Below are positions 597 through 35,756 of a stretch of DNA of 59,911 bases, in pieces. A program made the position numbers and the translations under genes. The notes beneath the pieces are model-generated. The model did no database searches. It saw nothing but the letters and a program-made list of their open reading frames with translations, and was not told the origin of the DNA. The first letter of the stretch is position 1. Each line of letters opens with the position of its first letter. Origin of the DNA: Minisyncoccota bacterium (lineage in GTDB: Bacteria > Patescibacteriota > Minisyncoccia > Phycocordibacterales > JAQTLZ01); assembly GCA_028714635.1 (NCBI GenBank), contig JAQTLZ010000005.1:1-59911 (forward strand), written 5' to 3'.

Positions 597-627
597 GCAA
601 ACAAAAAAGCCTAAAGGGCTTGGGGCT

Positions 628-714: not shown

Positions 715-2154
715 TCAAATTCCGCAACTAACCTGGTGGATCTTCGCTCGTGTTATTGGACCCACAAATCCAGTTGGACTAATACCATTGGCTTTCTGAA
801 AATCTTTGACTGCCTGGAAAGTCAACATACCGAAATATCCAGTTGGTTCTGAACTGAGATATCCTTTCGATTGCAAGAAGTCTTGCAAGGAAGAAACTTC
901 ACCGTTAGTGGATATATCTCGTGACTGATAGCGAAGATCATAAGTAAGAACAACACATGAAGAGGAGGAAGCTTGGGTATCTATATCAGCGGTTCCCGCA
1001 TTGTGAGCAGTATCAGCATTGGTATTTTCATTGCAAGGATGTCCCGTCCTTGGATTAAAGCGGAATCCTGGTTCACATCCCACCGAAGAATCTGGAGGAG
1101 GTACAACTGCAGGAGGTATCGCTGATCGCGCGACAACCGAGAAAGAATCACTGTTGTCACCTGTTGCACCAGCGCCGCTGAATTGGATTTGATATCCAGA
1201 ACTCGGGACGACATCTCCCGGCACAGTCCAACTAAACCAGTCTTGAGTAGCAGTATTAACTGTCCCGAGAGAGCGGCTACCATTCGATCCAAGTGCGCCC
1301 CCCACCAAATAAACCGAGTAACTTGTAACCCCGACATCTCTTCCAGACCACAGAAGTTTATAAATCATTCCCTGTTTCAGAGTGGCTCCGGCGGATGGAT
1401 ATGTCACAGTAAAGGGATACAGATTTTGATTAGTGCTTGCCGCAATCGAAAATGATGAGCTATTATCACCAGTAGCGCCAGCGCCACTAAACTGGATTTG
1501 ATAACCTGATTCAGGTGGGATATTTGAAGGAACTGTCCAACTAAACCAATCCTGATTCTCTGTGTCTACAGTACCAAGATAGCGGCTTCCATTTGAACCT
1601 AAACTTCCTCCAACCAGATACACAGAGTAGCTCCTAACTCCATTATCTCTTCCAGACCACATGAGTTTGTAGGTTGAACCTTGATTCAAGGTCGCTCCAG
1701 AAGAAGGAAACGTTACTTTGAAAGGATTTTGTGGCTGGTTAGGGATTATTGTTACCGTCCTAGAAACAGAATTTATTCCATAAGCAGACAGTAAAAGTCC
1801 CTCATTAATATTTTGAGAGGTATTATTTGTAAATACAAGATCCGTTGAATATTCGCCCGAAGGGAAATATCCATTCGTACCACCAGCTCCAATATCTCCG
1901 CAACTAAAAGGATGCAGTTTGCCAGCATCATCTCGCATCTGGATTATAAGCCCCTCATGACAATCAGCTGTTACTGTCACACCTTGTGCTGTCACATCAG
2001 AAAACGCATAAGAAACATTAAACGCATTCGGATATGATTCAGGGTTGTATGATGCTGTAGAAACAGTAAATCTTACAACTGTCGCTTGAGCAGAGACAGA
2101 TGATACAACCACAAAAGAAGCTAGAATAGTAAGTCCTACTAGATATTTTTTCAT
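715..2154 (-). CDS. secreted repeat protein with C-terminal peptidoglycan-binding (PG_binding_1-like) domain
   Basis: N-terminal signal peptide (ILASFVVVSSVSAQA). Two 103-aa tandem repeats, a Cys loop (CEPGFRFNPRTGHPC), and a C-terminal LQDFLQSKGY...FGMLTFQAVKDFQKANGISPTG motif. Confidence 0.8.
   Translation of the reverse strand: MKKYLVGLTILASFVVVSSVSAQATVVRFTVSTASYNPESYPNAFNVSYAFSDVTAQGVTVTADCHEGLIIQMRDDAGKLHPFSCGDIGAGGTNGYFPSGEYSTDLVFTNNTSQNINEGLLLSAYGINSVSRTVTIIPNQPQNPFKVTFPSSGATLNQGSTYKLMWSGRDNGVRSYSVYLVGGSLGSNGSRYLGTVDTENQDWFSWTVPSNIPPESGYQIQFSGAGATGDNSSSFSIAASTNQNLYPFTVTYPSAGATLKQGMIYKLLWSGRDVGVTSYSVYLVGGALGSNGSRSLGTVNTATQDWFSWTVPGDVVPSSGYQIQFSGAGATGDNSDSFSVVARSAIPPAVVPPPDSSVGCEPGFRFNPRTGHPCNENTNADTAHNAGTADIDTQASSSSCVVLTYDLRYQSRDISTNGEVSSLQDFLQSKGYLSSEPTGYFGMLTFQAVKDFQKANGISPTGFVGPITRAKIHQVSCGI
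1108..1725 (-). repeat. in-frame tandem duplication, 2 x 309 nt (2 x 103 aa)
   Basis: PFKVTFPSSGATLNQG...QIQFSGAGATGDNSSSFS aligns with PFTVTYPSAGATLKQG...QIQFSGAGATGDNSDSFS. Confidence 0.85.
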
Positions 2155-2226
2155 TTTTAATAAGTGATTTTACTAATAGCTTTATTGTATCATGCGTTCG
2201 AAAAAAAGAGGTGGAAAATTCTGAAG

Positions 2227-2256
2227 CAAAAAACCGCTCTTCTCGGCGGTTTTTTG
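2227..2256 (-). terminator. intrinsic terminator directly after rplE, inside the spc operon
   Basis: aaaccgc...gcggttt stem flanked by A and T runs, 11 nt after the rplE stop. Confidence 0.7.
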
Positions 2257-2266
2257 CTCTTATATA

Positions 2267-2815
2267 CTATTTCTTGACCTCTTCCTTCTTGAGCGGTAAC
2301 CCAATATATTCAAGAAAAGCCTCGGCTTCTTTTGGATTCTTTGCGTTCGTAACGAGCGTTACTGCAAGACCGAACACATCTTTGATTTCTTCATCCGGAG
2401 TTTCTGGGAAAATGGTGTGCTCCTTGATTCCAATCGTGTAGTTCCCCATCGCGTCCACTGCTTTCCTAGAAAGTCCTCGGAAGTCTCGCGTTCGAGGGAG
2501 GGCGACATTCAAAAGCTTATCGAGAAAACCGTACATTCGCGTTCCTCGGATAGTGACCTGATATCCAACTGGATCATTCTGTCGAACTTTGAAAGACGCA
2601 ATTGATTTCTTTGCGCCTCGAACTGCAGGCTTCTGGCCGGTAATTTTTGCGAGTCGGTTTGCAACGAGTTCGATCTTCTTCTTGTCTTTCATAGAACCAA
2701 CGCCAGCGCTCACCACAACCTTCACCATCTTTGGCGCCTGCATTGCGTTCTTGTAATGCATCTTTGTTTTGAGATGCTCAAACGCTTTATTCTGTTTTTC
2801 TTTTACTGAATCCAT
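2267..2815 (-). CDS. rplE: 50S ribosomal protein L5
   Basis: 182-aa ORF with a typical L5 sequence (NAMQAPKMVKVVVSAGVG, RGTRMYGFLDKL) and the expected operon position. Confidence 0.97.
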   Translation of the reverse strand: MDSVKEKQNKAFEHLKTKMHYKNAMQAPKMVKVVVSAGVGSMKDKKKIELVANRLAKITGQKPAVRGAKKSIASFKVRQNDPVGYQVTIRGTRMYGFLDKLLNVALPRTRDFRGLSRKAVDAMGNYTIGIKEHTIFPETPDEEIKDVFGLAVTLVTNAKNPKEAEAFLEYIGLPLKKEEVKK

Positions 2816-2824
2816 GTGTTTGAT

Positions 2825-3127
2825 TTAAATTTCCTGGCCGCTTTTTCGAGCGATTCGCACTTTCTTCTCACCAACCATCTTTGAACCAACTCGTGTTCCC
2901 TTTCCGCTCTTCTTATCAACAATCATGACGTTTGAAGCGTGCATTGGAAAACTTTTCTCGACAGTCTGGCCTTTCTCACCTTCTTTTCGAGGTCGCTGAT
3001 GTTTCTTGTGCTTGTTGATTCCTTCAACGATCAAAGTAGAAAGTTTTGGAAAAGCGCGAACAACCGTACCGGTCTTGCCCTTGTCCTTTCCTGTCATCAC
3101 TATTACGTTGTCTCCTTTTTTAATCAT
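2825..3127 (-). CDS. rplX: 50S ribosomal protein L24
   Basis: KOW motif MIKKGDNVIVMTGKDKGKTG. Start moved to the internal Met at 3127, because the ORF-track start at 3175 runs into an intergenic hairpin. Confidence 0.9.
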   Translation of the reverse strand: MIKKGDNVIVMTGKDKGKTGTVVRAFPKLSTLIVEGINKHKKHQRPRKEGEKGQTVEKSFPMHASNVMIVDKKSGKGTRVGSKMVGEKKVRIARKSGQEI

Positions 3128-3159
3128 GATTTTGTTATGAGCGAAGCGAGTTAGAAAAT

Positions 3160-3274
3160 CTTGACCCCCCACCAATTCTCATACTTGACGTATTAAGATT
3201 GATTACGAATAAATTCTTTTTTCCTTTTATGGTTTTCATATCTTTTGAATGTTAGGAATTGGTGGGGGGTTAAG
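3160..3274. repeat. long-range inverted repeat filling the rplN-rplX spacer
   Basis: ccccccaccaattc (3165-3178) is the perfect reverse complement of gaattggtgggggg (3256-3269), extendable to about 19 bp. The loop is 77 nt and AT-rich. Confidence 0.7.
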
Positions 3275-3304
3275 TAAATTATACTCACTACGTTCGTTAA
3301 TTTT

Positions 3305-3676
3305 CTAAACAATCTCCGGTGCGAGTGATGCAATAGTCTGAAAACCCATTTCAGAAATTTCTCGAGGGATTGGGCCGAAAACGCGTCCTGCGATAGGCTC
3401 CTGCTTTCCTTTTTCGATGATAACTACTGCGTTCTCATCAAATCGAATATAAGAACCGTCCTTTCGTCGGAAAGGCTGTACTTGTCGCACGACAACTGCC
3501 TGAAGCACATCTTTCTTCTTTACTCCCTTTCGAGGCTCTGCAGTCTGGACAGAAAGCACCACGATGTCTCCGATGCGAGCGTATCGCTTCTTACTTGAAC
3601 CAAGCACTTTGAAAATACGGCCGATCTTTCCCCCGCAGTTATCCGTTATTTTGACGATGGATCGTGGTTGAATCAT
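3305..3676 (-). CDS. rplN: 50S ribosomal protein L14
   Basis: MIQPRS...GRIFKVLG...VVVRQ pattern of L14, in operon order. Confidence 0.97.
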   Translation of the reverse strand: MIQPRSIVKITDNCGGKIGRIFKVLGSSKKRYARIGDIVVLSVQTAEPRKGVKKKDVLQAVVVRQVQPFRRKDGSYIRFDENAVVIIEKGKQEPIAGRVFGPIPREISEMGFQTIASLAPEIV

Positions 3677-3680
3677 ACAA

Positions 3681-3938
3681 TTATTTTATGACGATGAATG
3701 ACTTGTCTTTGGACATCGGTCGGCATTCCTGAATGGTAACAGTCTGACCTACTTCGTATGTTCCTTCCGCGTGCGCTTTATATCGCTTTATCTTTTTCAA
3801 GAATTTCTGATACTTTGGGTGCTTTACATATCGCATCACTTCGACGACGACGGTCTTCGCCATCTTGTTTGATGCCACCTTGCCGGTAAAAAGTTTCCCC
3901 TCTGCTTTCTTTTCTGTTTTGGTTACTTGTTCAGCCAT
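3681..3938 (-). CDS. rpsQ: 30S ribosomal protein S17
   Basis: 85 aa with GKVASNKMAKTVVVEV...KHPKYQK motif, in operon order. Confidence 0.95.
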   Translation of the reverse strand: MAEQVTKTEKKAEGKLFTGKVASNKMAKTVVVEVMRYVKHPKYQKFLKKIKRYKAHAEGTYEVGQTVTIQECRPMSKDKSFIVIK

Positions 3939-3943
3939 GATAA

Positions 3944-4123
3944 TTATTTAGTCTTTGTGTTGAGTTGAGTCAAAATTCGAGCAATATCTTTTCGCAACAC
4001 TCTTCCCTCTCGAACATTCTTTGTCTTGCTTCCTGAAACTCCAAATCGGAATTTCTGAAGACCTGCTCGCTTTTCAGTGAGCATTCGGTTCAATTCTTTT
4101 TCGTTTGTATCTTTGATTTCCAT
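3944..4123 (-). CDS. rpmC: 50S ribosomal protein L29 (59 aa, below the ORF-track cutoff)
   Basis: Hand translation gives MEIKDTNEKELNRMLTEKRAGLQKFRFGVSGSKTKNVREGRVLRKDIARILTQLNTKTK. This is L29-like and lies between rplP and rpsQ. Confidence 0.85.
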   Translation of the reverse strand: MEIKDTNEKELNRMLTEKRAGLQKFRFGVSGSKTKNVREGRVLRKDIARILTQLNTKTK

Positions 4124-4216
4124 ACGGGTAGATTTATGATTTAAGATTCATGATTTAAGAATGGGATTCGGATTCGATTTTATTTTGCATTATTCATATA
4201 TCCTGAATCGTAAATC
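4124..4216 (-). repeat. heptad-periodic spacer between rplP and rpmC (GATT/AATC flavour)
   Basis: gatt(t/c) at 4131, 4138, 4145 and 4152. On the mRNA strand GA recurs every 7 nt five times, starting at the last base of the rplP stop codon. Partial complementarity gattcggat / atcctgaatc. Confidence 0.5.
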
Positions 4217-4633
4217 TTATCTCTTTAAAATAACGGTCTTCAAAGGAAGCTTTGTGCCCGCCTTTCGAAGTGCCTCTCGTGCTGTTGCATCATCAACTCC
4301 GTCAATTTCAAAAATGATTCGTCCTGGGTATACCTGCACGCAGTATCCCTGTGGATCTCCTTTTCCGCCTCCCATACCTACTTCTGCAGCTTTGGCAGTA
4401 TAGGGCATATCAGGGAAAACGCGAATCCAAATCTTTCCAGTCTTACCGACAAGTCGTGACATCACCTTTCGGGCAGCTTCAAGCTGATTGGAACGCACTC
4501 GCATCGCGCTCAAAGATTTGATTCCGTATGAACCGAAAGCAATAGTAGTACCTCGTGTCTCCACGCGATCCTTCTTCATATTTCGGCGCATAGTCTGCCA
4601 CTTTCGATGTTTTACTTTTTTAGGAAGAAGCAT
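4217..4633 (-). CDS. rplP: 50S ribosomal protein L16
   Basis: MLLPKKVKHRK...GKGDPQGY motif, in operon order. Confidence 0.97.
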   Translation of the reverse strand: MLLPKKVKHRKWQTMRRNMKKDRVETRGTTIAFGSYGIKSLSAMRVRSNQLEAARKVMSRLVGKTGKIWIRVFPDMPYTAKAAEVGMGGGKGDPQGYCVQVYPGRIIFEIDGVDDATAREALRKAGTKLPLKTVILKR

Positions 4634-4641
4634 GGTAGTAA

Positions 4642-5316
4642 TTATTTAGCGGCTGGCTTTTTATCGGAAAAAACTTCTCCTTTGTATATCCAAACTTTGA
4701 TTCCAATATCTCCGTAACTCATATGAGCTTTCTCTCGTGCAAAATCAATATCAGCGCGGAATGTCTGAAGAGGGATTCGTCCTTTCTTGATCTTTTCTCG
4801 TCGTGCCATATCAGCACCTCCTAGGCGCCCTGAAAGACCTACTTTCACTCCGAGCACGTCTCGATTTGCCATAACTTTCTCAACGATCTGTTTTGCAACA
4901 CGTCGGAAAGGCATTCTTTTTTCAAGAGAGTCGGCAACCATTTGTGCAACGATAGCGGCATTTGATTCTGGAGAACGAATTTCAACAACATCAATTTTCA
5001 ATTCCTCTTTTGTCTTTACTCCCCATCGAGCAAATTGTTTTAAAATATCATTTCGAAGTTTTACCTGACCCTCTCCGTTTCGTCCGATGAGCACGCCTGG
5101 TCGAGAAGTTTTGATGATAACTCGCATTGTCTTTTGATTTCGTTCGATATCAACTCCGCTCACGAACATTCCTCGGAATTTGACTGCCAAGTATTCTCGC
5201 AAGAGTACATCCACCTTGAGAGATGCGCGGTATCCTTTGCCATCACTAAACCATCGACTCTTCCAGTCTCTGATGATGCCAAGTCTATGTGAATATGGAT
5301 GAACAATGTGTGTCAT
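4642..5316 (-). CDS. rpsC: 30S ribosomal protein S3
   Basis: HPYSHRLGIIRDWKSRWF with a KH domain, in operon order. Confidence 0.97.
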   Translation of the reverse strand: MTHIVHPYSHRLGIIRDWKSRWFSDGKGYRASLKVDVLLREYLAVKFRGMFVSGVDIERNQKTMRVIIKTSRPGVLIGRNGEGQVKLRNDILKQFARWGVKTKEELKIDVVEIRSPESNAAIVAQMVADSLEKRMPFRRVAKQIVEKVMANRDVLGVKVGLSGRLGGADMARREKIKKGRIPLQTFRADIDFAREKAHMSYGDIGIKVWIYKGEVFSDKKPAAK

Positions 5317-5325
5317 GATAAAAAA

Positions 5326-5712
5326 TTATTTCTTAACTGCTGTTTTTTCTTTCTTAATTTTTGCTGTTACTTTCGCGATGTCAGCTCCTCTTTCAGCAAG
5401 CGCGATAGACACGTGACTATTTCGTTTCAAAATCTGGAAAGCAGAACCTCGAGCTCGAGGCATTGATCGCTTCAAAACTCGTGCAGTATCTACTCGAACT
5501 TCTTTTACCAAAAGATCTTCCGCTTTGAATCCGTTTGTATTTTTTGCATTTGCAACTGCAGATGCGAGAAGCTTTGCGAAAACTTCGCTCGCCTTCTTCG
5601 GGAGAAATGAAAGCTGGCTCTGTGCCTCGACAACGCTCTTGCCTTTAATAAGATCCGCAACAAGGCGAACTTTTCGAGGTGATTGTCTGTAATCTGATAG
5701 GTAAGCTTTCAT
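5326..5712 (-). CDS. rplV: 50S ribosomal protein L22
   Basis: SPRKVRLVADLIKGK...A motif, in operon order. Confidence 0.95.
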   Translation of the reverse strand: MKAYLSDYRQSPRKVRLVADLIKGKSVVEAQSQLSFLPKKASEVFAKLLASAVANAKNTNGFKAEDLLVKEVRVDTARVLKRSMPRARGSAFQILKRNSHVSIALAERGADIAKVTAKIKKEKTAVKK

Positions 5713-5720
5713 GTTTTTGA

Positions 5721-5803
5721 TTAGGGTTTAGGGTAAAGGGTTGAGGGTTTAGGATTTTGGTTTCAGTGTTTTCTATACCCTGTCCCCTTCACCCTCTACC
5801 CTA
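5721..5803 (-). repeat. heptad-periodic hairpin filling the rpsS-rplV spacer (TTAGGG-like arm plus complementary CCCT arm)
   Basis: GGG recurs every 7 nt at 5724, 5731, 5738 and 5745, with GG at 5752. The C-rich arm at 5775-5803 pairs in the same 7-nt register. Confidence 0.7.
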
Positions 5804-5808
5804 GTTCG

Positions 5809-6150
5809 TTATTTTTTAGTATCAGCAGAGCCCTTTGCAGCTTGAGCAGCAGCGACTTCTGCCTCTTTCTTCTTCATTTCAAGTTCTTTCTGCATCTTAC
5901 CTCCGTGTCGGATGAATTTGCGTGTGTGTGAGAATTCTCCAAGTCTGTGGCCCACCATTTCTTCAGAGACAAGAACTTCGAGATGCTCTCGGCCGTTGTG
6001 AACGCCAAATTTAAAACCTACCATCTCCGGTGCGATCTGTGAGCGTCGTGACCAAGTCTTAATAAGCCCAGTTGTCTGGGGAGTTTTGCCTTCAATCTTT
6101 TTCAAGAGTTTCGGGTCAATATAAGGGCCTTTTTTGAGCGATCGTGTCAT
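5809..6150 (-). CDS. rpsS: 30S ribosomal protein S19 with Lys/Ala-rich C-terminal extension
   Basis: [12 protein letters not shown]...HNGREHLEV...GHRLGEF motif. Confidence 0.95.
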
Positions 6151-6219
6151 GATTTAATAAGCAAACTTGAGCTTTTTCGCGAACAGAAAAATAAAAAGCC
6201 CTCAAGAGAACTTGGCAAG

Positions 6220-6248
6220 ATACTAGCAAAATGGCCTATAAGTGTCAA
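6220..6248 (-). promoter_or_regulatory. sigma70-like promoter, TTGACA-N17-TAGTAT, upstream of rpsS
   Basis: Reverse complement of 6243-6248 is TTGACA and of 6220-6225 is TAGTAT. Same hexamers as the rpsZ promoter. Confidence 0.65.
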
Positions 6249-6295
6249 CGAGAGGTGGCTTTTAACCAGTAGACTGTGAGGTTTTAACTAAAAAT

Positions 6296-6333
6296 TGAAT
6301 AAAAAGGCGTCACGCTCTGGGAGCGGACGCCTT
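6296..6333 (-). terminator. intrinsic terminator after the 6342-6962 orphan
   Basis: aaggcgtc..cgctc-tgg-gagcg..gacgcctt long stem followed by TTTTTATT on the minus strand. Confidence 0.75.
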
Positions 6334-6341
6334 ATGTAACT

Positions 6342-6962
6342 TTACTTGAAAGCAGCCTGTACGATGTAGTCACTCTGGACCACTTGGGCACGAAGTTCGA
6401 GCATTGTTTTCCAGAGTCGCTCACGACTTTCTGCCCACTCTTGAGTGGTCCGAACCAATTGGTTCCATATCTGAATGGGATCTAAACGGACACCTTTTAC
6501 GAGGTCAGTGATGTTTACTCGGTCGACTCGTACCGCCTGCACCACTTCCGTCCCCCGATTTTTATACCCCGCAGCGCCGACAATCGAGACGTTTACCAAA
6601 AGCCAGTCGCCACTCCGACTCAGACCCCAGATGGGGATTGTTCCATTGCAAAGATATGTCCCCGAACTATAGCGATGCCCTGTATCGGGGATACTTATCT
6701 TCTCTCCTTTCCCAAAAATTCCTTGGATATCTGCTGTCGACTTCCCGTCTTCGTAACCAGTAATTACAGATCGACCCACCTCTCTCTCCCAAACATAATC
6801 CTTTAAGCACTTGAACTCGGAAAGCTTCGCCAACGAAACCGTATCTAGATACGGTTTCATATTATTGCGAAGTTCATCCAAAAGAGAGAGAAACCTGGCT
6901 TCTGTGGACAATCCACCTTTCACAATGAGCTTGCCTAGCTCGTCTTTCTTGAAAGAGGGCAT
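6342..6962 (-). CDS. hypothetical protein (GC-rich orphan inside the ribosomal operon)
   Basis: 206-aa ORF with no recognisable motif. Sampled 60-nt lines are about 50 percent GC against roughly 32-43 percent in the flanks. It has its own terminator at 6296-6333. Confidence 0.6.
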   Translation of the reverse strand: MPSFKKDELGKLIVKGGLSTEARFLSLLDELRNNMKPYLDTVSLAKLSEFKCLKDYVWEREVGRSVITGYEDGKSTADIQGIFGKGEKISIPDTGHRYSSGTYLCNGTIPIWGLSRSGDWLLVNVSIVGAAGYKNRGTEVVQAVRVDRVNITDLVKGVRLDPIQIWNQLVRTTQEWAESRERLWKTMLELRAQVVQSDYIVQAAFK

Positions 6963-7113
6963 ACCCTCCTCCTTTCTTTAATGTCCCCGGGCGTACCCAA
7001 GAACAGGCCGAAGCGACCAATCGCTTCTCTGGGTTAGAGACTACTGATTGCGTCTCAGAAAGTCAATTACATAAAACTAAAAAAAATAAAGATGTTTGAA
7101 TATTTACCGTTGC

Positions 7114-7134
7114 TGTCAAGGACAGTCCTTGACA
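7114..7134. repeat. REP-like 21-bp palindrome upstream of the RAYT gene
   Basis: TGTCAAGGACAGTCCTTGACA, identical to the copy at 7790-7810. Confidence 0.85.
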
Positions 7135-7144
7135 TAATAGAGGG

Positions 7145-7774
7145 ATGAAAAAGAGAGATTACAAAAATAGTGCGGAGGGTACTTTCGTGCATGTTTACAA
7201 CAGAGGAAATAATCGAGAGAAAATTTTTCATGATGAAAAGGACTACAAAGCTTTCGCTTTTCGAGTCGGACTCGCCCTAGGCATTGAAAGAGAAACTCTT
7301 CAAAAAGAAGACCTGCTGTCATTCCCCCACTCTCGAATTAGAATCAATGCAGGAGCTGATCTCTTCAAACTTCATTCATTTTGTCTCATGCCAAATCATT
7401 TCCATTTATTGATTGAACAATGCGGAGAGACAGAAATAGCAAAAATCATTTCCCAAATATCCACGAGCTATGCGATGTATCTCAATAAAAAATATCATAG
7501 AGTCGGGCATGTATTTCAGGAGAGATATAAAGCTGTAGTCATCGAATCCGATCCGCAACTCCTTTGGACTTCATCTTATATCCATATGAATCCGGTCAAA
7601 GCAAATATCGTAAAACACCCTGGTGAATATACATGGAGCAGTTACCAAGATTTTACAAAGAAAAGAAACTTACCGATTATCCACACAGATTTTTTACTAC
7701 CAATGTTCGGAGCGAAAGATTTCGAAAAAGAGACACTTGCCCTCTTTCTGAAATCCGAAGAATCCCCTTATTAG
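7145..7774 (+). CDS. REP-associated tyrosine transposase (IS200/Y1 HUH family, RAYT-like)
   Basis: HUH motif (NHFHLLIE) and catalytic Tyr region (SSYIHMNPVKA). Flanked on both sides by the same 21-bp palindrome. Confidence 0.85.
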   Translation: MKKRDYKNSAEGTFVHVYNRGNNREKIFHDEKDYKAFAFRVGLALGIERETLQKEDLLSFPHSRIRINAGADLFKLHSFCLMPNHFHLLIEQCGETEIAKIISQISTSYAMYLNKKYHRVGHVFQERYKAVVIESDPQLLWTSSYIHMNPVKANIVKHPGEYTWSSYQDFTKKRNLPIIHTDFLLPMFGAKDFEKETLALFLKSEESPY

Positions 7775-7789
7775 GATTAAGGGCCCGAG

Positions 7790-7810
7790 TGTCAAGGACA
7801 GTCCTTGACA
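7790..7810. repeat. REP-like 21-bp palindrome downstream of the RAYT gene
   Basis: TGTCAAGGACAGTCCTTGACA, identical to the copy at 7114-7134. Confidence 0.85.
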
Positions 7811-7935
7811 CCTTAAAAATAACAAAGAAAAGGCCCCATAAGGACGGAACCTTAAGGGGTGATCTTTTCCGTTGGTGATGACACTAGTATAGACGAATGA
7901 GGGGCCAAAAGTCAACAAAGCAGGTAAAACCGTCA

Positions 7936-8433
7936 TTATTCTGCCAGCTTGTAAGTTTGATTAAATTCCGCGCGAGCAATTATATAAGGTTCCCCCCCCA
8001 TTGCCTTTGTATCAATATCATAAGTATCAGCGATAAGACAATCAGCAGCACCATTCTGCATTTCTCCCCAGGATGCCATCATCGTAACTGGGCTATTAAA
8101 AGGATTATCGATTGCTTTACAGTATCCTTTTGCCGAATATACTCCTGGCTCTCCGGCTTTTGGTTCATATCTTTTTGCAAATTTTATTCCGTCAATAACA
8201 TATCGTTCGCCACCGGGGTTTGTAATAATAGCATCACCTGCTTTCGCTACATTTTTCGTTTCAGTTGTTCCGTCTGTTAATTTTGTAATTATTTCCTCTC
8301 CCCCTTTGGCGATCTCAGCTCTCATTTCTCCTTGTTTTTTAAAGATAGGAGCATTTTCAAGTCCCTGCATAATTTCCGGTGCATGTCTGTTAATTTCTTT
8401 AAAAGTTATGGGCTCCGGCGCTTGTTCTGTCAT
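7936..8433 (-). CDS. hypothetical protein
   Basis: 165-aa ORF with no signal peptide. I cannot confirm any family assignment. Confidence 0.55.
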   Translation of the reverse strand: MTEQAPEPITFKEINRHAPEIMQGLENAPIFKKQGEMRAEIAKGGEEIITKLTDGTTETKNVAKAGDAIITNPGGERYVIDGIKFAKRYEPKAGEPGVYSAKGYCKAIDNPFNSPVTMMASWGEMQNGAADCLIADTYDIDTKAMGGEPYIIARAEFNQTYKLAE

Positions 8434-8528
8434 TTTATCTAAATTATTAATAATAAATAATTGTACTCTTTTCTTTTCTCACTTACTAGATATCAAAAAG
8501 GATGAACTTCCTTAGCACGAAAGCGAGT

Positions 8529-8710
8529 CCCACACCTTTTGGGAAACTCACTGGGCTCTGCGCAAAACAAAGGAGCTTTTTAGGAAAACTGAATTGTTTG
8601 AGAAAACCGCCCCCGAAGAGGTGCGGTTTTTGAGTTTTCAATTTTCCGTGAAGAAAAGTGACTATTATTTAAGCGGAGAACCAGTGGGGCTGTTTTCCAA
8701 AAGGTGTGGG
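8529..8710. mobile_element. 182-bp MITE-like element with ~30-35-bp imperfect terminal inverted repeats and a 5-bp target-site duplication
   Basis: Left end cccacaccttttgggaaactcactgggctc, right end gagaaccagtggggctgttttccaaaaggtgtggg. CGAGT is directly repeated at 8524-8528 and 8711-8715. A terminator hairpin lies inside. Confidence 0.7.
8603..8631. terminator. bidirectional terminator-like hairpin inside the MITE downstream of rplB
   Basis: aaaaccgc...gcggtttt stem. Confidence 0.6.
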
Positions 8711-8718
8711 CGAGTGCC

Positions 8719-9570
8719 TTATTTCTTATTCTTCCCCTTCCCCACCTTTCGTCGAGAGACGATGAAAATGTTTGAATATTTTTTTGCTCGGCGGGATTTC
8801 TGTCCTTTTCCTGTCGGCTTTCCATATGAAGTCTTTTGTCGTCGGCTTCCTCGTCCTTGTCGTCCTTCACCTCCTCCGTGTGGGTGGTCTACCGGGTTCA
8901 TAGCAGTACCTCGCACTGTCGGTCGGATACCAAGCCATCGAGAACGTCCTGCTTTACCGATATTTACAAGACGATTTTCATCATTTGAAACTTCACCGAC
9001 ACATGCGTAGCACTCTTCGTGTACTCGTCGAATTTCTGTCGAAGGCATTTTGAGGTGAGTGTAATTGGCGTCCTGCGCAACAACTTCGATGTAGTTTCCA
9101 GCGCTGCGGCCGAGCTTTCCACCATTTCCGGGTTTAAGTTCTACGTTATATACAAAAGTACCAACTGGAATTTTCTTGAGAGGCATTCGATTGCCCATTT
9201 TTACAGGAGCTTTTTCAGAAACGACGAATGAATCACCAACTTTCATAGACTTTGGAGCGAGCACATAGCGCTTCTCTCCATCCTGATATTGTACGAGTGC
9301 GATGAAACCAGTTCGGTTTGGATCGTATTCAATGGTCAACACTTTTGCAGGAACATCTTTCTTGTTGTATCGAAAATCAACATCTCGGAAAAGTCGCTTA
9401 TGTCCGCCTCCTTTGTGGCGCACAGTCAAACGGCCAAAGCTGTTTCGTCCCACATCTCGCTTAAAACCTGACGTGAGCGATTTCAAAGGCTCTGACGCAG
9501 TAAGGAACTCTCGGTAGTTGATACCGGTCATTCCACGTCGTGATGCTGTTGTTGGTTTATAGGTCTTCAT
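8719..9570 (-). CDS. rplB: 50S ribosomal protein L2
   Basis: GRNSFGRLTVRHKGGGHKR...HPHGGGEGR motif. Confidence 0.97.
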   Translation of the reverse strand: MKTYKPTTASRRGMTGINYREFLTASEPLKSLTSGFKRDVGRNSFGRLTVRHKGGGHKRLFRDVDFRYNKKDVPAKVLTIEYDPNRTGFIALVQYQDGEKRYVLAPKSMKVGDSFVVSEKAPVKMGNRMPLKKIPVGTFVYNVELKPGNGGKLGRSAGNYIEVVAQDANYTHLKMPSTEIRRVHEECYACVGEVSNDENRLVNIGKAGRSRWLGIRPTVRGTAMNPVDHPHGGGEGRQGRGSRRQKTSYGKPTGKGQKSRRAKKYSNIFIVSRRKVGKGKNKK

Positions 9571-9575
9571 GTTTT

Positions 9576-9947
9576 TTATACAAATTCAATCTTGTCGCCT
9601 TTTTTCAGAAAAACATATGCTTTCTTCACTCGTGTTTTCATCCCCACTTTCCCTCGGACAAACACTTTCTTTGCAGGGGTGAAAACAATGTTTACCTTCG
9701 TCGGCGTCACTTTATACATCTCTTTTATCGAAGACGCGACAGTAGCCTTTGTTGCAGAGTGAGCAATAGAAAATACATAGATATTTTTTTCAGCTTCTTG
9801 TGATGATTTTTCAGTCACTCGAGGATGAAGGACGATATGAGAAAGGTCAGCATGAGGCTTCGTCGAAGGCGCTTTTACAACAGCAACTTCTGTTTCCACA
9901 ACCTTTGCTTTCTTTTTTACCTCTTCTTTTTTAGCGAAAATAGCCAT
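9576..9947 (-). CDS. rplW: 50S ribosomal protein L23 with N-terminal extension
   Basis: The C-terminal 90 aa are L23-like (HPRVTEKS...YVFSI...KVNIV). Operon position is between rplD and rplB. Confidence 0.9.
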   Translation of the reverse strand: MAIFAKKEEVKKKAKVVETEVAVVKAPSTKPHADLSHIVLHPRVTEKSSQEAEKNIYVFSIAHSATKATVASSIKEMYKVTPTKVNIVFTPAKKVFVRGKVGMKTRVKKAYVFLKKGDKIEFV

Positions 9948-9952
9948 GGTAA

Positions 9953-10627
9953 TTATTTAGTCTTAGCGGGAATTTTTGAAGAAAGAAATTCAAATGACTT
10001 TTCTGGTTCTGTGATGATGAGATATGCATTCTGCATGAGATCCATAGGATTCATATTTCGAAGTTCGTCCACAGTAACATTTCCAAAGTTTCCAAAACCT
10101 CGCTCTACCGCAACGTCCTTGTGTCCGAGAGTGATATAAGCCGCATTCTTTCGCTTTGTAGAAAGCTTTTCAAATCCTGCGATCTTGCCGAGATTCATAA
10201 CGATCTCCTTTGCATCTTTTGTCTTTCCGCTATCCATATTCAAAGTATCGACAAAGATGATTTCTTTATCTTTCAATTTTCTAGAAAGGATCGTGTAGAG
10301 AGCTTTCGCTTTCATAGAACGATTGATTTTTCGAGTGAAATTCTGATCGTTTCGAGGACCGTGAGCAACACCTCCGCCAACCCAGATAGGAGAACGAGTA
10401 GAACCGTGACGAGCTCGGCCAGTACCTTTCTGTCTCCAAGGCTTCTTGCCTCCTCCTCGTACCTCTCCTCGAGTCTTTGTGTGAGCAACAGGCTTTCGTG
10501 CGTTGGTCTTCATTGAAGTCGTCACTTGGTGAACCAAGTCAGAATTCCAGTGAACGCCGAATACTGCTTCAGGAAGTTTTACTTTCCCTGTTTCTTTTCC
10601 CTTTTGGTTGTAAACGGTTGCTTCCAT
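9953..10627 (-). CDS. rplD: 50S ribosomal protein L4
   Basis: KTRGEVRGGGKKPWRQKGTGRARHGS motif. Confidence 0.95.
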   Translation of the reverse strand: MEATVYNQKGKETGKVKLPEAVFGVHWNSDLVHQVTTSMKTNARKPVAHTKTRGEVRGGGKKPWRQKGTGRARHGSTRSPIWVGGGVAHGPRNDQNFTRKINRSMKAKALYTILSRKLKDKEIIFVDTLNMDSGKTKDAKEIVMNLGKIAGFEKLSTKRKNAAYITLGHKDVAVERGFGNFGNVTVDELRNMNPMDLMQNAYLIITEPEKSFEFLSSKIPAKTK

Positions 10628-10632
10628 TGTAT

Positions 10633-11235
10633 TTAGGCTTTGATCTCAACAAGTGTTCCTCGTCGTCCTGGAACCGCTCCGCCGATAATAATTTCTCGTT
10701 TTGCTTCGTCAACCATAAGCACAGTCATACCTTTTGAAGTAATCGTGTCTTGTCCCATTCTGCCTCCCATTCTCATTCCTTTTGGAACACGAGTTCGAAG
10801 CCCTCCTCCAATAGAACCAGGTTCTCGTTCAGAGTGTTTCTGCCCGTGAGTTCGTCGTCCTCCGCCGAAGCCGTGTCGCTTGATAACACCTTGGAAACCT
10901 TTTCCTTTTGAAACAGAAGTGATGACGACTTTCTCCCCAACTTTGAAAAGTGCTGGGCTAAGTGTGTCGCCGACTTTCAAATCTGAAACGCCTGCGAATT
11001 CTCGGAAATTAGAGAAATTTCCAAGCTCTTTTGTGTGGCCTTTTTGAGCCTTGTTTACGTTCTTTGGGTTTCGAGTGCCGTAGCCGATTTGTACAGCTTT
11101 GTAGCCGTCTTTTTCGTCTGTTTTCACTTGAGTAACAACGTTTGCGCCACAGGAAATAATCGTTCCAGGGTGAAGTGCCCCGTTTTCATCGAAGACTTGC
11201 GTCATATTTACCTTTTGTCCTAGGACGAATTTCAT
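10633..11235 (-). CDS. rplC: 50S ribosomal protein L3
   Basis: GKGFQGVIKRHGFGGG...HG motif, in operon order. Confidence 0.95.
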   Translation of the reverse strand: MKFVLGQKVNMTQVFDENGALHPGTIISCGANVVTQVKTDEKDGYKAVQIGYGTRNPKNVNKAQKGHTKELGNFSNFREFAGVSDLKVGDTLSPALFKVGEKVVITSVSKGKGFQGVIKRHGFGGGRRTHGQKHSEREPGSIGGGLRTRVPKGMRMGGRMGQDTITSKGMTVLMVDEAKREIIIGGAVPGRRGTLVEIKA

Positions 11236-11731: not shown

Positions 11732-11736
11732 TTGAA

Positions 11737-11756
11737 TAGGGTTTAGGGTAAAGGGT
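11737..11756 (-). repeat. 20-nt TTAGGG-like tract in the tuf-rpsJ spacer, identical to 5722-5741
   Basis: tagggtttagggtaaagggt is identical at both loci. Each copy ends 6-10 nt upstream of a ribosomal-protein start codon. Confidence 0.7.
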
Positions 11757-11762
11757 GTAGGG

Positions 11763-13103: not shown

Positions 13104-13111
13104 TTCAAGGC

Positions 13112-13143: not shown

Positions 13144-13165
13144 CCTATCCTCTTCGATAAGAGAT

Positions 13166-35010: not shown

Positions 35011-35756
35011 TCTTTCATAATAGCTTGTTCGTCTTCAGCCGAGAGGGCTTTGCGAAATTTCGCTTTTTTGCCTTTTACTCGCTTTTCGCAGTCCGCCCAA
35101 GTCGAATGTTTGATAAGCACCCCATCGATAAGACTTAAGTATGAATAAGCTTTCGCGTTCGAATGAGCGCGCGAAGCGCTTTTTTCTTTTGCGAGAGATT
35201 TGTCGAGATCGAAATTCAAAATGTCTCTCCCGTATCCGGAAAGCACTCCGTTATAAAGCTTCGTCGGTCTTCCATCTGCAAAAGAAGTTGCGATCTCATC
35301 CGCGCGCTCGTTTCCGGCGATTCCCACATGGCCACCGAGATATTTCCATTCAATATTTTTGCCATCTATCGCATCAAGAAGTTTCTCCCACAAATCTCGA
35401 TTTTGCACATCTTCTTTTGTTTTTGTCTTCCAACCATTCGCTTCCCACGCCTTTGCCCATTTAGTTATGCCATTCAAAAGATAGCTTGAATCAGAGAACA
35501 GCGTAAAGCGTTTAGCGGCGAGCGGATAGGAAGAAAGAAACTTAAAAGCCTCTATTGCTCCGGTTAATTCCATCCTATTGTTTGTGATCTTTTTCTCACT
35601 GCCACCGATTTCAGTAACCCGCATTTCTGCTGAATTTGCATGCACGCCATCCGCTCCACGCTCGCCGCTAAACGCTATCACCGCTCCCCACCCGCCCGGC
35701 CCTGGATTTCCGCGAGAGGCCCCGTCGGTGAAAATAATTATTTCGTCCTTTTTCAT
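34995..35756 (-). CDS. rnhA: ribonuclease HI with C-terminal hybrid-binding-like domain
   Basis: IFTDGASRGNPGPGGWG...NNRMEL...SDS...HVGIAGNERADE catalytic pattern. C-terminal YSYLSLIDG...W...V.G...FRK resembles an RNase H1 HBD. Start set at MKKDEIII. Confidence 0.85.
   Translation of the reverse strand: MKKDEIIIFTDGASRGNPGPGGWGAVIAFSGERGADGVHANSAEMRVTEIGGSEKKITNNRMELTGAIEAFKFLSSYPLAAKRFTLFSDSSYLLNGITKWAKAWEANGWKTKTKEDVQNRDLWEKLLDAIDGKNIEWKYLGGHVGIAGNERADEIATSFADGRPTKLYNGVLSGYGRDILNFDLDKSLAKEKSASRAHSNAKAYSYLSLIDGVLIKHSTWADCEKRVKGKKAKFRKALSAEDEQAIMKEWGVK

What the first reader, a model, noticed from the sequence alone, without database searches (positions are those of the whole stretch)
5721..5803. 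Heptad-periodic, telomere-like hairpins fill ribosomal-operon spacers directly upstream of start codons
The 96-nt rpsS-rplV spacer holds five 7-nt units (TTAGGGT TTAGGGT AAAGGGT TGAGGGT TTAGGA). A complementary C-rich arm follows, in the same 7-nt register. The rpsL-rpsG spacer (26062-26149) has the same architecture with AGCG/CGCT units, and the rplP-rpmC spacer (4124-4216) has GATT/AATC units. On the mRNA strand the arm next to the upstream stop codon shows NAG or GA at a strict 7-nt spacing. This is reminiscent of repeat-RNA-binding regulators such as TRAP, which binds G/UAG repeats. An identical 20-mer, tagggtttagggtaaagggt, recurs upstream of rpsJ (11737-11756) without a partner arm. Each flavour of the hairpin ends 6-10 nt before the ATG.
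Basis: seen in the sequence. Interest (0 to 1): 0.62.

Follow-up and report, generated by a model that had tools for sequence, protein, structure and literature searches.

The report
Heptad-repeat hairpin inserts between ribosomal genes
Short hairpin-forming inserts built from 7-base repeats sit between ribosomal-protein genes of this tiny uncultured (Paceibacterota) bacterium; its closest relatives lack them at the same spots, and they belong to a widespread, barely studied class of repeat elements, so they are not a dedicated ribosomal regulator.

Summary
Strict 7-nt periodicity occurs at 7 places in the window (0.08 expected), and all 7 are arms of the reported elements or of one new pair inside an RNase HI gene. 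The rpsS-rplV and rpsL-rpsG spacers fold far better than shuffles; the rplP-rpmC spacer does not. A relative with 88-94% DNA identity (MAG STB_28) has 4-5-nt spacers where H1 and H3 sit, and other relatives have 7-8 nt where H2 sits. The hairpins are recent, strain-variable gains. They belong to a cross-phylum class: two inverted arrays of 4-5 heptads with fixed polarity (YAG-type arm 5', complement 3'; 42 pairs against 3 in two surveys). This is the same chassis that flanks genes of the '23S rRNA intervening-sequence protein' family (PF05635): 48 of 77 loci against 2 controls. Patescibacterial r-protein operons are peppered with ORF-less copies (86 period-7 arrays against 2 at period 6 and 19 at period 8). 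My best reading is ORF-less, IVS-like insertion elements. The genome is SD-less, and the stem foot puts the upstream stop next to the downstream start, so the inserts are tolerated. RNase III cleavage is plausible but untested. How they spread is unknown.

The parts
5713..5808 (-). H1, the whole rpsS-rplV spacer. On the mRNA the 5' G-rich arm (UAGGGU AGAGGGU GAAGGGG ACAGGGU) is 5772-5803, the loop is about 5757-5771, and the 3' C-rich arm (ACCCUNN x5) is 5721-5756. An A-rich tail AAUCAAAAAC precedes the rplV AUG at 5712.
   Evidence: (-38.7 kcal/mol, z = -7.4). Absent in STB_28, in STB_34 and in co-occurring relatives in landfill runs, where contigs skip 5713->5809.
26056..26151 (-). H2, the rpsL-rpsG spacer hairpin of the AGCG/CGCT flavour. 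On the mRNA the 5' arm is 26122-26151; its first unit overlaps the last two S12 codons and the stop codon. The 3' arm is 26062-26096. The tail UAUCAAACAC precedes the rpsG AUG at 26055.
   Evidence: (-23.5 kcal/mol, z = -3.5). The spacer is 7-8 nt in STB_34 and GCA_040384425, and STB_28 has a different hairpin there.
4124..4216 (-). H3, the rplP-rpmC spacer element of the GATT/AATC flavour. The arms are about 4188-4228 and 4127-4165.
   Evidence: (weak fold, z = -1.5). Absent in STB_28 (5-nt spacer), in STB_34 (4 nt) and in landfill relatives, where contigs skip 4120->4233.
11732..11762 (-). H5, a solo C-rich array (ACCCUNN x4) that fills the 31-nt tuf-rpsJ spacer. It has the same unit order as the 3' arm of H1, including an identical 20-mer, but no partner arm.
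   Evidence: (no structure).
35490..35702 (-). H4, an AGCG/CGCT array pair inside the RNase HI coding sequence. The arms are 35641-35702 and 35490-35530 and encode VIAFSGERGADGV and SYPLAAKRFTLF. About 110 nt of conserved RNase H sequence (TNNRMEL) lies between them. The arms form an 18-bp perfect stem.
   Evidence: PF00075, E = 6e-36; z = -4.6. The STB_28 orthologue lacks the arrays and is 16 aa shorter across this segment.
3128..3304 (-). A larger hairpin element in the rplN-rplX spacer. The arms are 3139-3178 and 3256-3295 with a 77-nt loop. It is not clearly heptad-periodic. It ends with AUAACAAAAUC before the true rplX AUG at 3127.
   Evidence: (I1). STB_34 has a homologous element whose inner stem is fully compensated. 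STB_28 has only a 19-nt spacer.

Best explanation
The spacer hairpins are ORF-less members of a widespread class of insertion or repeat elements. Each element is two inverted arrays of 4-5 heptanucleotide units. The 5' arm carries a YAG-type core (TAGGG, TAGCG, AGATT) and the 3' arm carries its complement. This is the same chassis that surrounds genes of the '23S rRNA intervening-sequence protein' family (S23p, four-helix-bundle, PF05635) in many phyla.

Shown:
- The elements were gained, or replaced, in this lineage after it split from relatives with 88-94% DNA identity.
- They occur as small sequence families within one genome.
- They do not occupy orthologous sites.

Inferred, on why they persist in an essential operon:
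- The genome initiates translation without Shine-Dalgarno sequences, and its r-protein cistrons normally abut with 4-12-nt spacers.
- On the polycistronic mRNA the arms pair into an interrupted stem of about 25 bp. The foot of the stem lies 5 nt after the upstream stop codon and 6-9 nt before the downstream AUG.
- A ribosome terminating upstream therefore melts the foot and is delivered next to an A-rich, unstructured initiation tail (AUCAAAMAC-AUG) that the element itself carries. Translational coupling survives the insertion.
- The periodic TAG/TAA also stops any reading frame that enters the element.

Inferred by analogy: the stem is the kind that RNase III excises when such elements sit in 23S rRNA, so the operon transcript may be cleaved at these spacers.

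The elements are tolerated selfish or neutral DNA, not r-protein regulators. The way they spread is not known.
For: Reality and significance.

Recent gain and non-orthology:
- blastn of STB_28 pieces against the window gives 88-94% identity, with gaps exactly at H1, H3 and the rplN-rplX element.
- STB_34 has empty spacers.
- Landfill contigs skip the hairpins.
- The rpsL-rpsG spacers of three relatives differ.

Families within the genome:
- H1 and H5 share an identical 20-mer and the same unit order.
- H2 and H4 share sequence.
- Near-identical copies sit in different spacers of one operon in L223, L247 and L268.

Class membership:
- The (AGGGTNN)x4 pattern hits at least 120 genome loci across phyla, against about 1 expected.
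- Inverted pairs are G-arm-first in 21 cases and C-arm-first in 2.
- The (TAGCGNN)x4 pattern in metagenomes gives 21 against 1.
- ORFs between the arms are PF05635.
- Of 77 PF05635 loci chosen by protein homology alone, 48 have a strict period-7 array upstream, 33 downstream and 44 have complementary flanks. Controls 600-800 nt away give 2, 1 and 0.
- The flavours of this window recur there.
- The Coxiella IVS carries an S23p ORF, a 28-bp terminal stem, tandem heptamers whose copy number varies, and experimentally shown RNase III excision (PMC4990558).

Patescibacteria r-protein loci (1.19 Mb): 86 arrays at period 7 against 2 at period 6, 19 at period 8 and 16 at period 9. At the laxer threshold, 119 of 164 are intergenic and 52 have a partner.

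SD-less genome and A-rich tails. No terminator signature.
Against: - No transcript data exist: no RNA runs were found. Folding in vivo, coupling and RNase III cleavage are all inference.
- No PF05635 gene was found in the window or in the 80 Patescibacteria r-protein loci. The link to that cassette rests on architecture, polarity and shared flavours only.
- Filled and empty sites show no target-site duplication. The whole spacer, and even a neighbouring codon, is replaced. This does not look like clean cut-and-paste.
- Variable positions of the units are not more complementary between arms than under shuffled unit order in H1-H4 (low power). Pairing may therefore be a by-product of two arrays of one motif.
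- H3 folds no better than many shuffles.
- Some arrays grow in place from local sequence, as at rplD-rplW in STB_28.
- H4 lies in a coding sequence, with host sequence between the arms. A simple insertion model does not explain this.
- The A1 query for PF05635 was built from ORFs found next to GGGT arrays, so the 62% figure may apply to a subfamily only.
Confidence: 0.6

Rival explanations
1. Slippage-only origin. The arrays are heptanucleotide microsatellites that grow in place by replication slippage. Inverted partners arise by intrastrand template switching (quasi-palindrome correction). No mobility and no protein partner are involved.
For: - Solo arrays far outnumber pairs: 111 solo against 23 pairs, and 117 solo against 22 pairs.
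- The number of units per array falls off as 4 > 5 > 6, like an SSR.
- In STB_28 an array at rplD-rplW overlays sequence that is unarrayed and 10 nt shorter in the window.
- There are no target-site duplications.
- Over-representation of heptamer SSRs and copy-number changes in 7-nt steps are known (PMC4692102; PMC4679880; PMC4990558).
Against: - A 95-nt structure replaces a 4-5-nt spacer with no local seed.
- The same five-unit order, including the odd AAAGGGT unit, appears at two loci 6 kb apart.
- Near-identical complete hairpins occur in different spacers in L223, L247 and L268.
- The 42:3 polarity of pairs is not predicted by template switching.
- The tight association with one protein family is not predicted either.
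Confidence: 0.2
2. Recruited RNA processing or stability signals. The stems are RNase III (or other nuclease) sites or protective hairpins that cut the long r-protein transcript into segments with different half-lives. They are kept by selection wherever they arise.
For: - The stems are of RNase III-substrate length.
- IVS stems of the same build are cut by RNase III (PMC4990558).
- Occupancy peaks at the S10/spc operon boundary and at rplN-rplX in Patescibacteria: 17 and 11 arrays in 80 loci.
- The inner stem of the rplN-rplX element is fully compensated between the window and STB_34.
- Within the window, 5 of 16 translation-gene junctions carry an element against 0 of about 40 other junctions. 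This is my hand count, Fisher p about 0.001, or about 0.005 for 4 of 16 if the non-heptad rplN-rplX element is left out.
Against: - Presence or absence differs between relatives at about 93% identity, at every site examined.
- Flavour and even period differ at the same junction.
- There are no RNA data.
- No rnc gene lies in the window, which is uninformative.
Confidence: 0.15
3. Repeat-RNA-binding regulator. A multimeric protein reads the periodic NAG motifs on the mRNA and controls translation of the downstream r-protein gene, as TRAP does.
For: - A YAG core at strict 7-nt spacing is common to most flavours.
- The 3' arrays abut start codons.
- S23p is a toroidal homopentamer (Lin 2006, cited in PMC4990558), and arrays have mostly 4-5 units.
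- A post-transcriptional regulator was proposed for TAACTGA repeats upstream of start codons (PMC4679880).
Against: - Orthologous spacers are empty in close relatives.
- TRAP geometry is not met.
- Arrays occur between convergent genes and in coding sequence.
- No candidate protein gene lies in the window.
- The count of short distances to start codons is inflated by naive ORF calling, because the arrays carry stop codons.
Confidence: 0.07
4. REPIN-like elements mobilised by the Y1 (IS200/RAYT-type) transposase encoded 1.3 kb from H1.
For: - window:7145-7774(+) is PF01797 Y1_Tnp (E = 1e-11).
- The hairpins are of REPIN size.
- Y1 enzymes act on hairpin DNA (established knowledge).
Against: - The transposase gene is flanked by its own, unrelated perfect palindrome, TGTCAAGGACAGTCCTTGACA. 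It occurs only twice in the window.
- Several unrelated flavours would need several enzymes.
- The hairpin class is found in many genomes irrespective of such a gene.
Confidence: 0.04
5. G-quadruplex or i-motif switches formed by the GGG/CCC tracts.
For: - The G arm of H1 is a canonical G3N4 x4 motif.
- G4 formation was reported for related GGGNATC heptamer repeats (PMC4692102).
Against: - The AGCG, GATT, AAGTTAT and AGCTT flavours cannot form G4 yet have the same architecture.
- In the hairpin the G tracts are paired.
Confidence: 0.03

Closest known systems
Intervening sequences (IVS) of 23S rRNA that carry an S23p / four-helix-bundle ORF (Coxiella, Leptospira; PF05635), and the short ORF-less IVSs of enterobacterial and alphaproteobacterial 23S rRNA
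   Same: - Terminal inverted repeats form a long stem.
- Tandem heptameric repeats lie in the arm next to the ORF, and their copy number varies between strains (PMC4990558).
- Here, 62% of the PF05635 loci surveyed have strict period-7 arrays with the same polarity and the same flavours as the window's hairpins.
- ORF-less forms of about 100 nt exist in both.
- Both sit in highly expressed genes of the translation apparatus.
   Different: - The window's elements lie in mRNA intercistronic spacers and in one coding sequence, not in rRNA helices.
- They carry no ORF.
- RNase III excision is not shown here.
- That PF05635 cassettes in general are bounded by polar heptad arrays was not described in any paper I could find.
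Intergenic heptanucleotide tandem repeats: STRR of Calothrix/Nostoc, GGGAATC of Xanthomonas and GGGGAYT of Nostoc (PMC4692102), and TAACTGA repeats just upstream of start codons in Beggiatoaceae, cyanobacteria and Bacteroidetes (PMC4679880)
   Same: - A 7-nt unit, with 2-6 or more copies, in intergenic positions.
- Orientation bias towards the downstream start codon.
- Stop codons in all three frames.
- Absent from orthologous spacers of relatives.
- Occasional inverted pairs.
- Some lie upstream of r-protein genes.
   Different: - Those reports treat direct repeats, and inverted pairs are mentioned only in passing.
- Here the paired hairpin form, its fixed polarity (42:3), several co-existing flavours in one genome, and the density in Patescibacteria r-protein operons are the salient features.
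REP/REPIN elements with RAYT transposases; other miniature palindromic repeats (ERIC, Correia, the SDR elements of Nostoc)
   Same: Short, multi-copy, hairpin-forming intergenic elements of about 70-110 nt. They are tolerated inside operons and vary between strains.
   Different: - The arms here are internally periodic, with a 4-5-nt core and a variable spacer, instead of being one conserved palindrome.
- The only Y1 transposase in the window has different flanking palindromes.
TRAP-binding (G/U)AG repeat leaders of Bacillus trp genes
   Same: NAG triplets at regular spacing on mRNA near a start codon. A ring-shaped protein is a conceivable partner.
   Different: The period is 7, not 5-6. There are 4-5 units, not 9-11. 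The sites are not conserved at orthologous positions, a complementary arm is present, and they occur in all gene contexts.

Membership tests
TRAP-regulated (G/U)AG repeat leader | 9-11 GAG/UAG triplets separated by 2-3 nt | tested here: not met
   There are 4-5 units, the period is strictly 7 (4-nt spacers), and the cores are 4-5 nt long.
TRAP-regulated (G/U)AG repeat leader | The site is conserved upstream of orthologous genes | tested here: not met
   The spacers are empty in STB_28, STB_34 and GCA_040384425.
TRAP-regulated (G/U)AG repeat leader | The genome encodes TRAP (MtrB) | not tested
   Only about 40 window proteins were scanned against Pfam, with no hit. The rest of the genome is not available.
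IVS-type element (S23p/PF05635 cassette and its ORF-less forms) | Terminal inverted repeats that form a long stem | tested here: met
   H1 -38.7 kcal/mol (z = -7.4), H2 z = -3.5, H4 z = -4.6. H3 is weak at z = -1.5.
IVS-type element (S23p/PF05635 cassette and its ORF-less forms) | Arms built of tandem heptamers with YAG-first polarity | tested here: met
   Window arms. PF05635 loci: 48 of 77 against 2 controls. YAG core in 39 of 48 arms. Polarity 21:2 and 21:1. Coxiella heptamers: PMC4990558.
IVS-type element (S23p/PF05635 cassette and its ORF-less forms) | Contains a PF05635 ORF | tested here: not met
   tblastn finds none in the window or in the 80 r-protein loci. ORF-less short IVSs are known, so this does not exclude kinship.
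IVS-type element (S23p/PF05635 cassette and its ORF-less forms) | Inserted in 23S/16S rRNA helices | tested here: not met
   The elements lie in mRNA spacers and in an RNase HI coding sequence. No rRNA gene is in the window.
IVS-type element (S23p/PF05635 cassette and its ORF-less forms) | Excised from the transcript by RNase III | not testable with these tools
   No RNA runs hold this sequence.
Heptanucleotide SSR arrays (STRR, TAACTGA, GGGAATC type) | At least 3-4 tandem 7-nt units, intergenic, in excess over other periods | tested here: met
Heptanucleotide SSR arrays (STRR, TAACTGA, GGGAATC type) | Copy number changes in 7-nt steps between close strains | tested here: inconclusive
   The only in-place comparison, rplD-rplW in the window against STB_28, differs by 10 nt plus substitutions. 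The other sites are all-or-none.
REP/REPIN with RAYT | The Y1 transposase gene is flanked by the same repeat that is dispersed in the genome | tested here: not met
   The Y1 gene at 7145-7774 is flanked by TGTCAAGGACAGTCCTTGACA (7114-7134 and 7790-7810). That palindrome is unrelated to the heptad arms and occurs nowhere else in the window.
r-protein autoregulatory mRNA operator (for example the S7 site in the rpsL-rpsG spacer) | A conserved structure at the orthologous spacer, recognised by a curated model | tested here: not met
   No Rfam match at gathering threshold in the whole window. The spacer is 7-8 nt in two relatives, and STB_28 has a different hairpin.
Intrinsic terminator | A GC-rich stem followed by a U tract | tested here: not met
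   No terminator-like site at H1, H3 or H5 in the 2000-13200 scan; H2 lies outside the scanned range. The tails are A-rich.

The most novel reading that the evidence does not exclude
The heptad arrays are the cognate binding sites of the toroidal, pentameric PF05635 (S23p/Avd-like) protein: one YAG-core unit per subunit, 4-5 units per arm. Array pair plus ORF would then be an unrecognised autonomous genetic element found across bacterial phyla. The ORF-less hairpins that pepper Patescibacteria r-protein operons would be its non-autonomous copies, acted on in trans for spread, maintenance or RNA-level excision. This would give the 30-year-old 'IVS protein' a function and would define a new kind of protein-plus-repeat mobile or RNA-processing system. 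Its logic resembles TRAP, but the protein is unrelated.
Probability: 0.2. Interest if true: 0.85.

Novelty: new variant of a known kind. Interest (0 to 1): 0.6.

Why it matters
For this window, the finding removes a tempting but wrong annotation, namely a conserved regulator of the ribosomal operon. It also shows that the tightest operon junctions of a streamlined CPR genome turn over on the time-scale of species divergence.

More generally, the follow-up ties together three separate literatures: over-represented heptamer repeats, repeats upstream of start codons, and rRNA intervening sequences with their orphan S23p ORF. All three fit one architecture with a fixed polarity. The surveys give numbers that make the link testable:
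- 62% of PF05635 loci have a strict period-7 array, against 3% of controls.
- Inverted pairs show 42:3 polarity.
- Patescibacteria r-protein operons hold 86 period-7 arrays, against 2 at period 6 and 19 at period 8.

If the protein-array link holds, it would explain a very common 'hypothetical' gene family and a common class of intergenic repeats. It would also bear on how SD-less bacteria keep cistrons coupled across inserted structures.

Tried and rejected
- **Rfam.** The gathering-threshold scan of the whole window gave nothing, and an E-value scan of one side region also gave nothing.
- **tRNA/tmRNA.** None found.
- **Generic inverted-repeat finder.** It missed the heptad hairpins because of their internal loops.
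- **RNA-seq evidence.** No runs hold the sequence.
- **Exact-protein look-ups** of the window's S12, S10 and EF-Tu to reach relatives: not on record. I solved this through the S7 cluster members.
- **Unit-specific compensation between arms.** The test was not significant for H1-H4. It has low power, so I did not use it as evidence either way.
- **Pentamer-matching mode in units per array.** The distribution simply decays from the detection floor of 4, so it is uninformative.
- **YAG/CTR polarity in AT-rich Patescibacteria flavours.** This metric is noisy (7:9:7). Purine-rich-first is 16:7. Polarity is firm only for the GGGT and AGCG flavours.
- **Distance from array to start codon across phyla.** C-type arrays are within 15 nt of an ORF start in 22 cases, against 2 for G-type. 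Naive ORF calling inflates this, because the arrays carry stop codons, so I cite it only with that caveat.
- **General r-protein association.** Rejected: 0 of 240 array loci across phyla lie near r-protein genes.
- **Rejected explanations.** Terminator, REPIN/RAYT, and G4 as a general explanation. I also considered TIGR or CRISPR-like arrays and dismissed them on unit size, without running a test.
Full report
**What the window is.** All the translation genes lie on the minus strand, in the order rpsL-rpsG-(71 aa)-fusA ... tuf-rpsJ-rplCDWB ... rpsS-rplV-rpsC-rplP-rpmC-rpsQ-rplN-rplX-rplE-secY. A search with RplV found a Candidatus Paceibacterota MAG (STB_28, JAQTSY010000002.1) at 100% protein identity, and a second MAG (STB_34) at 88%. 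The window is not STB_28 itself. Pieces of that contig align collinearly at only 88-94% DNA identity, and its RNase HI orthologue has a different sequence in the same gene neighbourhood. This gave me a very close relative for comparison, plus STB_34 and GCA_040384425.

**Checking the observation.**
- I scanned for 4 consecutive units with at least 4 invariant columns. Period 7 gives 7 regions, against 0.08 expected under a first-order Markov model. Periods 4, 5, 8 and 10 give 0, periods 9 and 11 give 1, period 6 gives 2, and period 12 (codon-driven) gives 6.
- On the mRNA strand, the rpsS-rplV spacer (H1) folds at -38.7 kcal/mol (z = -7.4) and the rpsL-rpsG spacer (H2) at -23.5 (z = -3.5).
- The rplP-rpmC spacer (H3) reaches only z = -1.5. 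The tuf-rpsJ copy (H5) is a single arm with no structure.
- The stems are strings of 4-11-bp helices made by the cores, separated by small internal loops.
- The arrays end 6-9 nt before the ATG. The upstream stop is 5 nt before the stem in H1 and inside the first unit in H2.

**Orthologous spacers.**
- STB_28 has TAA-TTTCC-ATG where H1 sits, TAA-TTTTT-ATG where H3 sits, and 19 nt where the window has a 177-nt rplN-rplX spacer holding a 157-nt hairpin element.
- STB_34 has 11 nt at the H1 site and 4 nt at the H3 site.
- Contigs from two landfill metagenomes that hold this organism also hold relatives whose sequence jumps exactly over H1 (5713->5809) and H3 (4120->4233).
- The rpsL-rpsG spacer is 7 nt in STB_34 and 8 nt in GCA_040384425. 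STB_28 has a 93-nt spacer with a different hairpin: AGCTT/AAGCT cores spaced 9-10 nt apart (z = -3.9). It shares only AATTCAAAA in the loop with H2.
- The relatives carry their own arrays elsewhere. STB_34 has an AAGTTAT-type hairpin at rplX-rplE and an AAGCTAN array at rpsQ-rplN. STB_28 has AAGCTAN arrays at rplD-rplW and upstream of rpsS. The rplD-rplW array overlays sequence that is unarrayed and 10 nt shorter in the window.
- The rplN-rplX element is shared by the window and STB_34, with a fully compensated inner stem (CCCCCCACCAATTC/GAATTGGTGGGGGG against CCCCGCCCTTTC/GAAAGGGCGGGG). STB_28 lacks it.
- The elements are therefore gained, lost and remodelled on the time-scale of species divergence.

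**They form sequence families.**
- H1 and H5 share an identical 20-mer and the same order of five units.
- H2 and the RNase HI pair share 20 of 21 nt and further blocks.
- In other Patescibacteria, near-identical complete hairpins occupy different spacers of one operon: L223 at 7658 and 8732; L247 at 349, 7853 and 17541; and several in L268.

**The class they belong to.**
- The (AGGGTNN)x4 pattern hits at least 120 loci in one-genome-per-species bacteria of many phyla.
- Among these loci, inverted pairs are G-arm-first in 21 cases and C-arm-first in 2. This polarity reads the same on both strands, so gene orientation cannot explain it.
- The pairs fill whole spacers between co-directional, convergent and divergent genes.
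- In several loci the arms enclose an ORF of about 120 aa, which Pfam assigns to PF05635, '23S rRNA-intervening sequence protein' (E = 1e-33), with a weak bAvd-like match.
- I then took 80 PF05635 loci chosen by protein homology alone. Of the 77 with full flanks, 48 have a strict period-7 array within 200 nt upstream, 33 have one downstream, 25 have both, and 44 have complementary flanks. Controls 600-800 nt away give 2, 1 and 0.
- The flavours there include those of this window. AGCG/CGCT occurs, for example, in a MAG from the same site (L154). GGGT/ACCC occurs too, along with AGTGAAT, CGTAG, GGCAACA and AGGGAAY.
- 39 of 48 upstream arms have a YAG core.
- A second scan, (TAGCGNN)x4 in metagenomes, reproduced the picture. 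It gave at least 120 loci, with 21 AGCG-first pairs against 1 CGCT-first. Loops were mostly 15-65 nt. Three pairs with 370-513-nt loops enclosed PF05635 ORFs.

**Literature.**
- Heptamers are known to be the over-represented long SSR class in bacteria. GGGAATC and GGGGAYT repeats, some as inverted pairs, were described in Xanthomonas and Nostoc (PMC4692102).
- TAACTGA repeats lie just upstream of start codons, include some before ribosomal genes, create stops in all three frames, and are absent from orthologous spacers of relatives (PMC4679880).
- The Coxiella 23S rRNA IVS has an S23p ORF, a 28-bp terminal stem, tandem GACAGAT heptamers whose number varies between strains, and experimentally shown RNase III excision. 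S23p of Xanthomonas is a toroidal homopentamer (PMC4990558).
- I found no paper stating that PF05635 cassettes in general are bounded by polar heptad arrays. I also found none describing such hairpins in Patescibacteria operons.

**Patescibacteria r-protein operons.** I examined 80 loci centred on rplN (plus or minus 10 kb, 1.19 Mb, mostly Patescibacteria).
- Arrays with at least 5 invariant columns number 86 at period 7, against 2 at period 6, 19 at period 8, 16 at period 9, 8 at period 10 and 7 at period 11.
- At the laxer threshold of 4 columns there are 164 at period 7. Of these, 119 are mostly intergenic and 52 have a complementary partner within 250 nt.
- 44 of the 80 loci have at least one array. 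Occupancy peaks just upstream of rplN (17 arrays) and just downstream (11).
- None of these loci holds a PF05635 ORF.
- The association with r-protein genes is not general: 0 of 240 array loci from the two cross-phylum scans lie next to an r-protein gene.
- Within the window, 5 of 16 junctions between translation genes carry an element, against 0 of about 40 other junctions. This is my own count, Fisher p about 0.001, or about 0.005 for 4 of 16 if the rplN-rplX element, which is not clearly heptad-periodic, is left out.

**How it most likely works.**

Shown:
- The genome has almost no Shine-Dalgarno sequences, and start codons are preceded by A/T-rich tracts.
- Normal r-protein junctions read TAAATAATTAYC-ATG or shorter.
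- The elements end with their own A-rich tail: AATCAAAAAC-ATG in H1, TATCAAACAC-ATG in H2 and ATAACAAAATC-ATG in the rplN-rplX element.
- There is no terminator signature at H1, H3 or H5; the scan (2000-13200) did not reach H2, and the tails after all the stems are A-rich.

Inferred:
- With the stem formed, the upstream stop and the downstream start lie at the foot of one helix.
- A terminating ribosome melts the outer helix, frees the tail and can reinitiate. Termination-reinitiation coupling therefore survives a 90-nt insertion.
- The periodic TAG/TAA blocks all reading frames that enter the element.
- The stem resembles the IVS stems that RNase III cuts.

I therefore read the hairpins as tolerated selfish or neutral insertions of the IVS/heptad class, not as regulators of ribosomal-protein synthesis.

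**Unresolved points.**
- There are no target-site duplications. The whole spacer is replaced, and in H3 a neighbouring codon is replaced too.
- Variable positions of the units are not detectably co-varying between arms (low power).
- Some arrays grow in place.

**The RNase HI case (H4) is the least explained part.**
- The two arms are translated, as VIAFSGERGADGV and SYPLAAKRFTLF. They bracket about 110 nt of conserved RNase H sequence and form an 18-bp perfect stem (fold z = -4.6).
- Relative to the STB_28 orthologue, the protein has 14 extra residues (42 nt, or six heptads) in the beta2-beta3 loop and 2 more before beta4.
- A Taylorbacteria RNase HI at 58% identity has four perfect CGCT heptads at the homologous codons (SLNAKRLTLYA). 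It also has a different heptad array in its own beta2-beta3 insertion.
- Arrays can therefore enter, or arise in, insertion-tolerant coding loops when the added length keeps the reading frame.

**Verdict.** The elements are a new variant of a known kind: heptanucleotide arrays and IVS-type elements. The most novel reading still open is that the arrays are binding sites of the pentameric PF05635 protein and that the ORF-less hairpins are its non-autonomous copies.

Noticed in passing
window 35490-35702 (RNase HI gene 34995-35756, minus strand); L213:404-444 and L213:527-561: Heptad arrays lie inside RNase HI coding sequences, in frame. In the window this is an inverted AGCG/CGCT pair with an 18-bp perfect stem. 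In a Taylorbacteria homologue, four CGCT heptads sit at the homologous codons and a second array sits in the beta2-beta3 insertion. The STB_28 orthologue has neither.
   Followed up: partly
window 6151-8718 (genes 6342-6962, 7145-7774, 7936-8433): A 2.4-kb block interrupts the S10 operon between rplB and rpsS. STB_28 has an unrelated 760-nt segment there. The block holds an IS200-like Y1 transposase (PF01797) flanked by two identical perfect palindromes, TGTCAAGGACAGTCCTTGACA (7114-7134 and 7790-7810). It also holds a PGDYG-family protein and a 206-aa ORF with the only strong Shine-Dalgarno sequence in the window.
   Followed up: partly
window 13166-22815: About 10 kb separates tuf from fusA. 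It holds three very large ORFs (1070, 862 and 969 aa) with fn3, TIG, PKD and Big_7 domains, which look like surface proteins, plus a 194-aa ORF. This is an unusual break of the str operon.
   Followed up: no
window ~480-600(-) and ~29640-29760(-): Two paralogous structured elements of about 110 nt. Each has a stem that differs between the copies but stays paired, followed by AAGACCTTTTSAG...AAAAGGTGTACAGCNCCTGTAAGG. Neither has an Rfam match. One is also present in STB_28 at 74% identity. This may be an undescribed CPR non-coding RNA or leader.
   Followed up: partly
window 28560-28682, 45615-45735 and 52908-52973: A second dispersed inverted-repeat family. Identical arms TAGTGAAAAATGGCAT / ATGCCATTTTCTACTA about 90 nt apart occur at two loci, and a related pair (GTAGTGAAAAACAGCAT / ATGCTGTTTTCTACTAC) occurs at a third.
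   Followed up: no
whole window compared with L001, L212 and L294: The window is not the public MAG STB_28, although RplV is identical. DNA identity is 88-94% and the order is collinear, with several indels of 0.1-2 kb. It comes from a sister lineage in the same landfill community.
   Followed up: yes
L294:1408-1500 (STB_28 rpsL-rpsG spacer): A hairpin with the same overall build as H2, but with AGCTT/AAGCT cores spaced 9-10 nt apart instead of 7. It shares only AATTCAAAA in the loop with H2. The period is therefore not always 7 at a given junction.
   Followed up: partly
whole window (start-codon contexts): The genome is essentially free of Shine-Dalgarno sequences. Internal r-protein junctions share the motif TAAATAATTAYC-ATG.
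   Followed up: partly
L016:4461-4892 and L016:7503-7528; L351: On single contigs, a PF05635 cassette with heptad arms lies within a few kb of solo arrays or hairpins of the same flavour. This is anecdotal support for action in trans.
   Followed up: no
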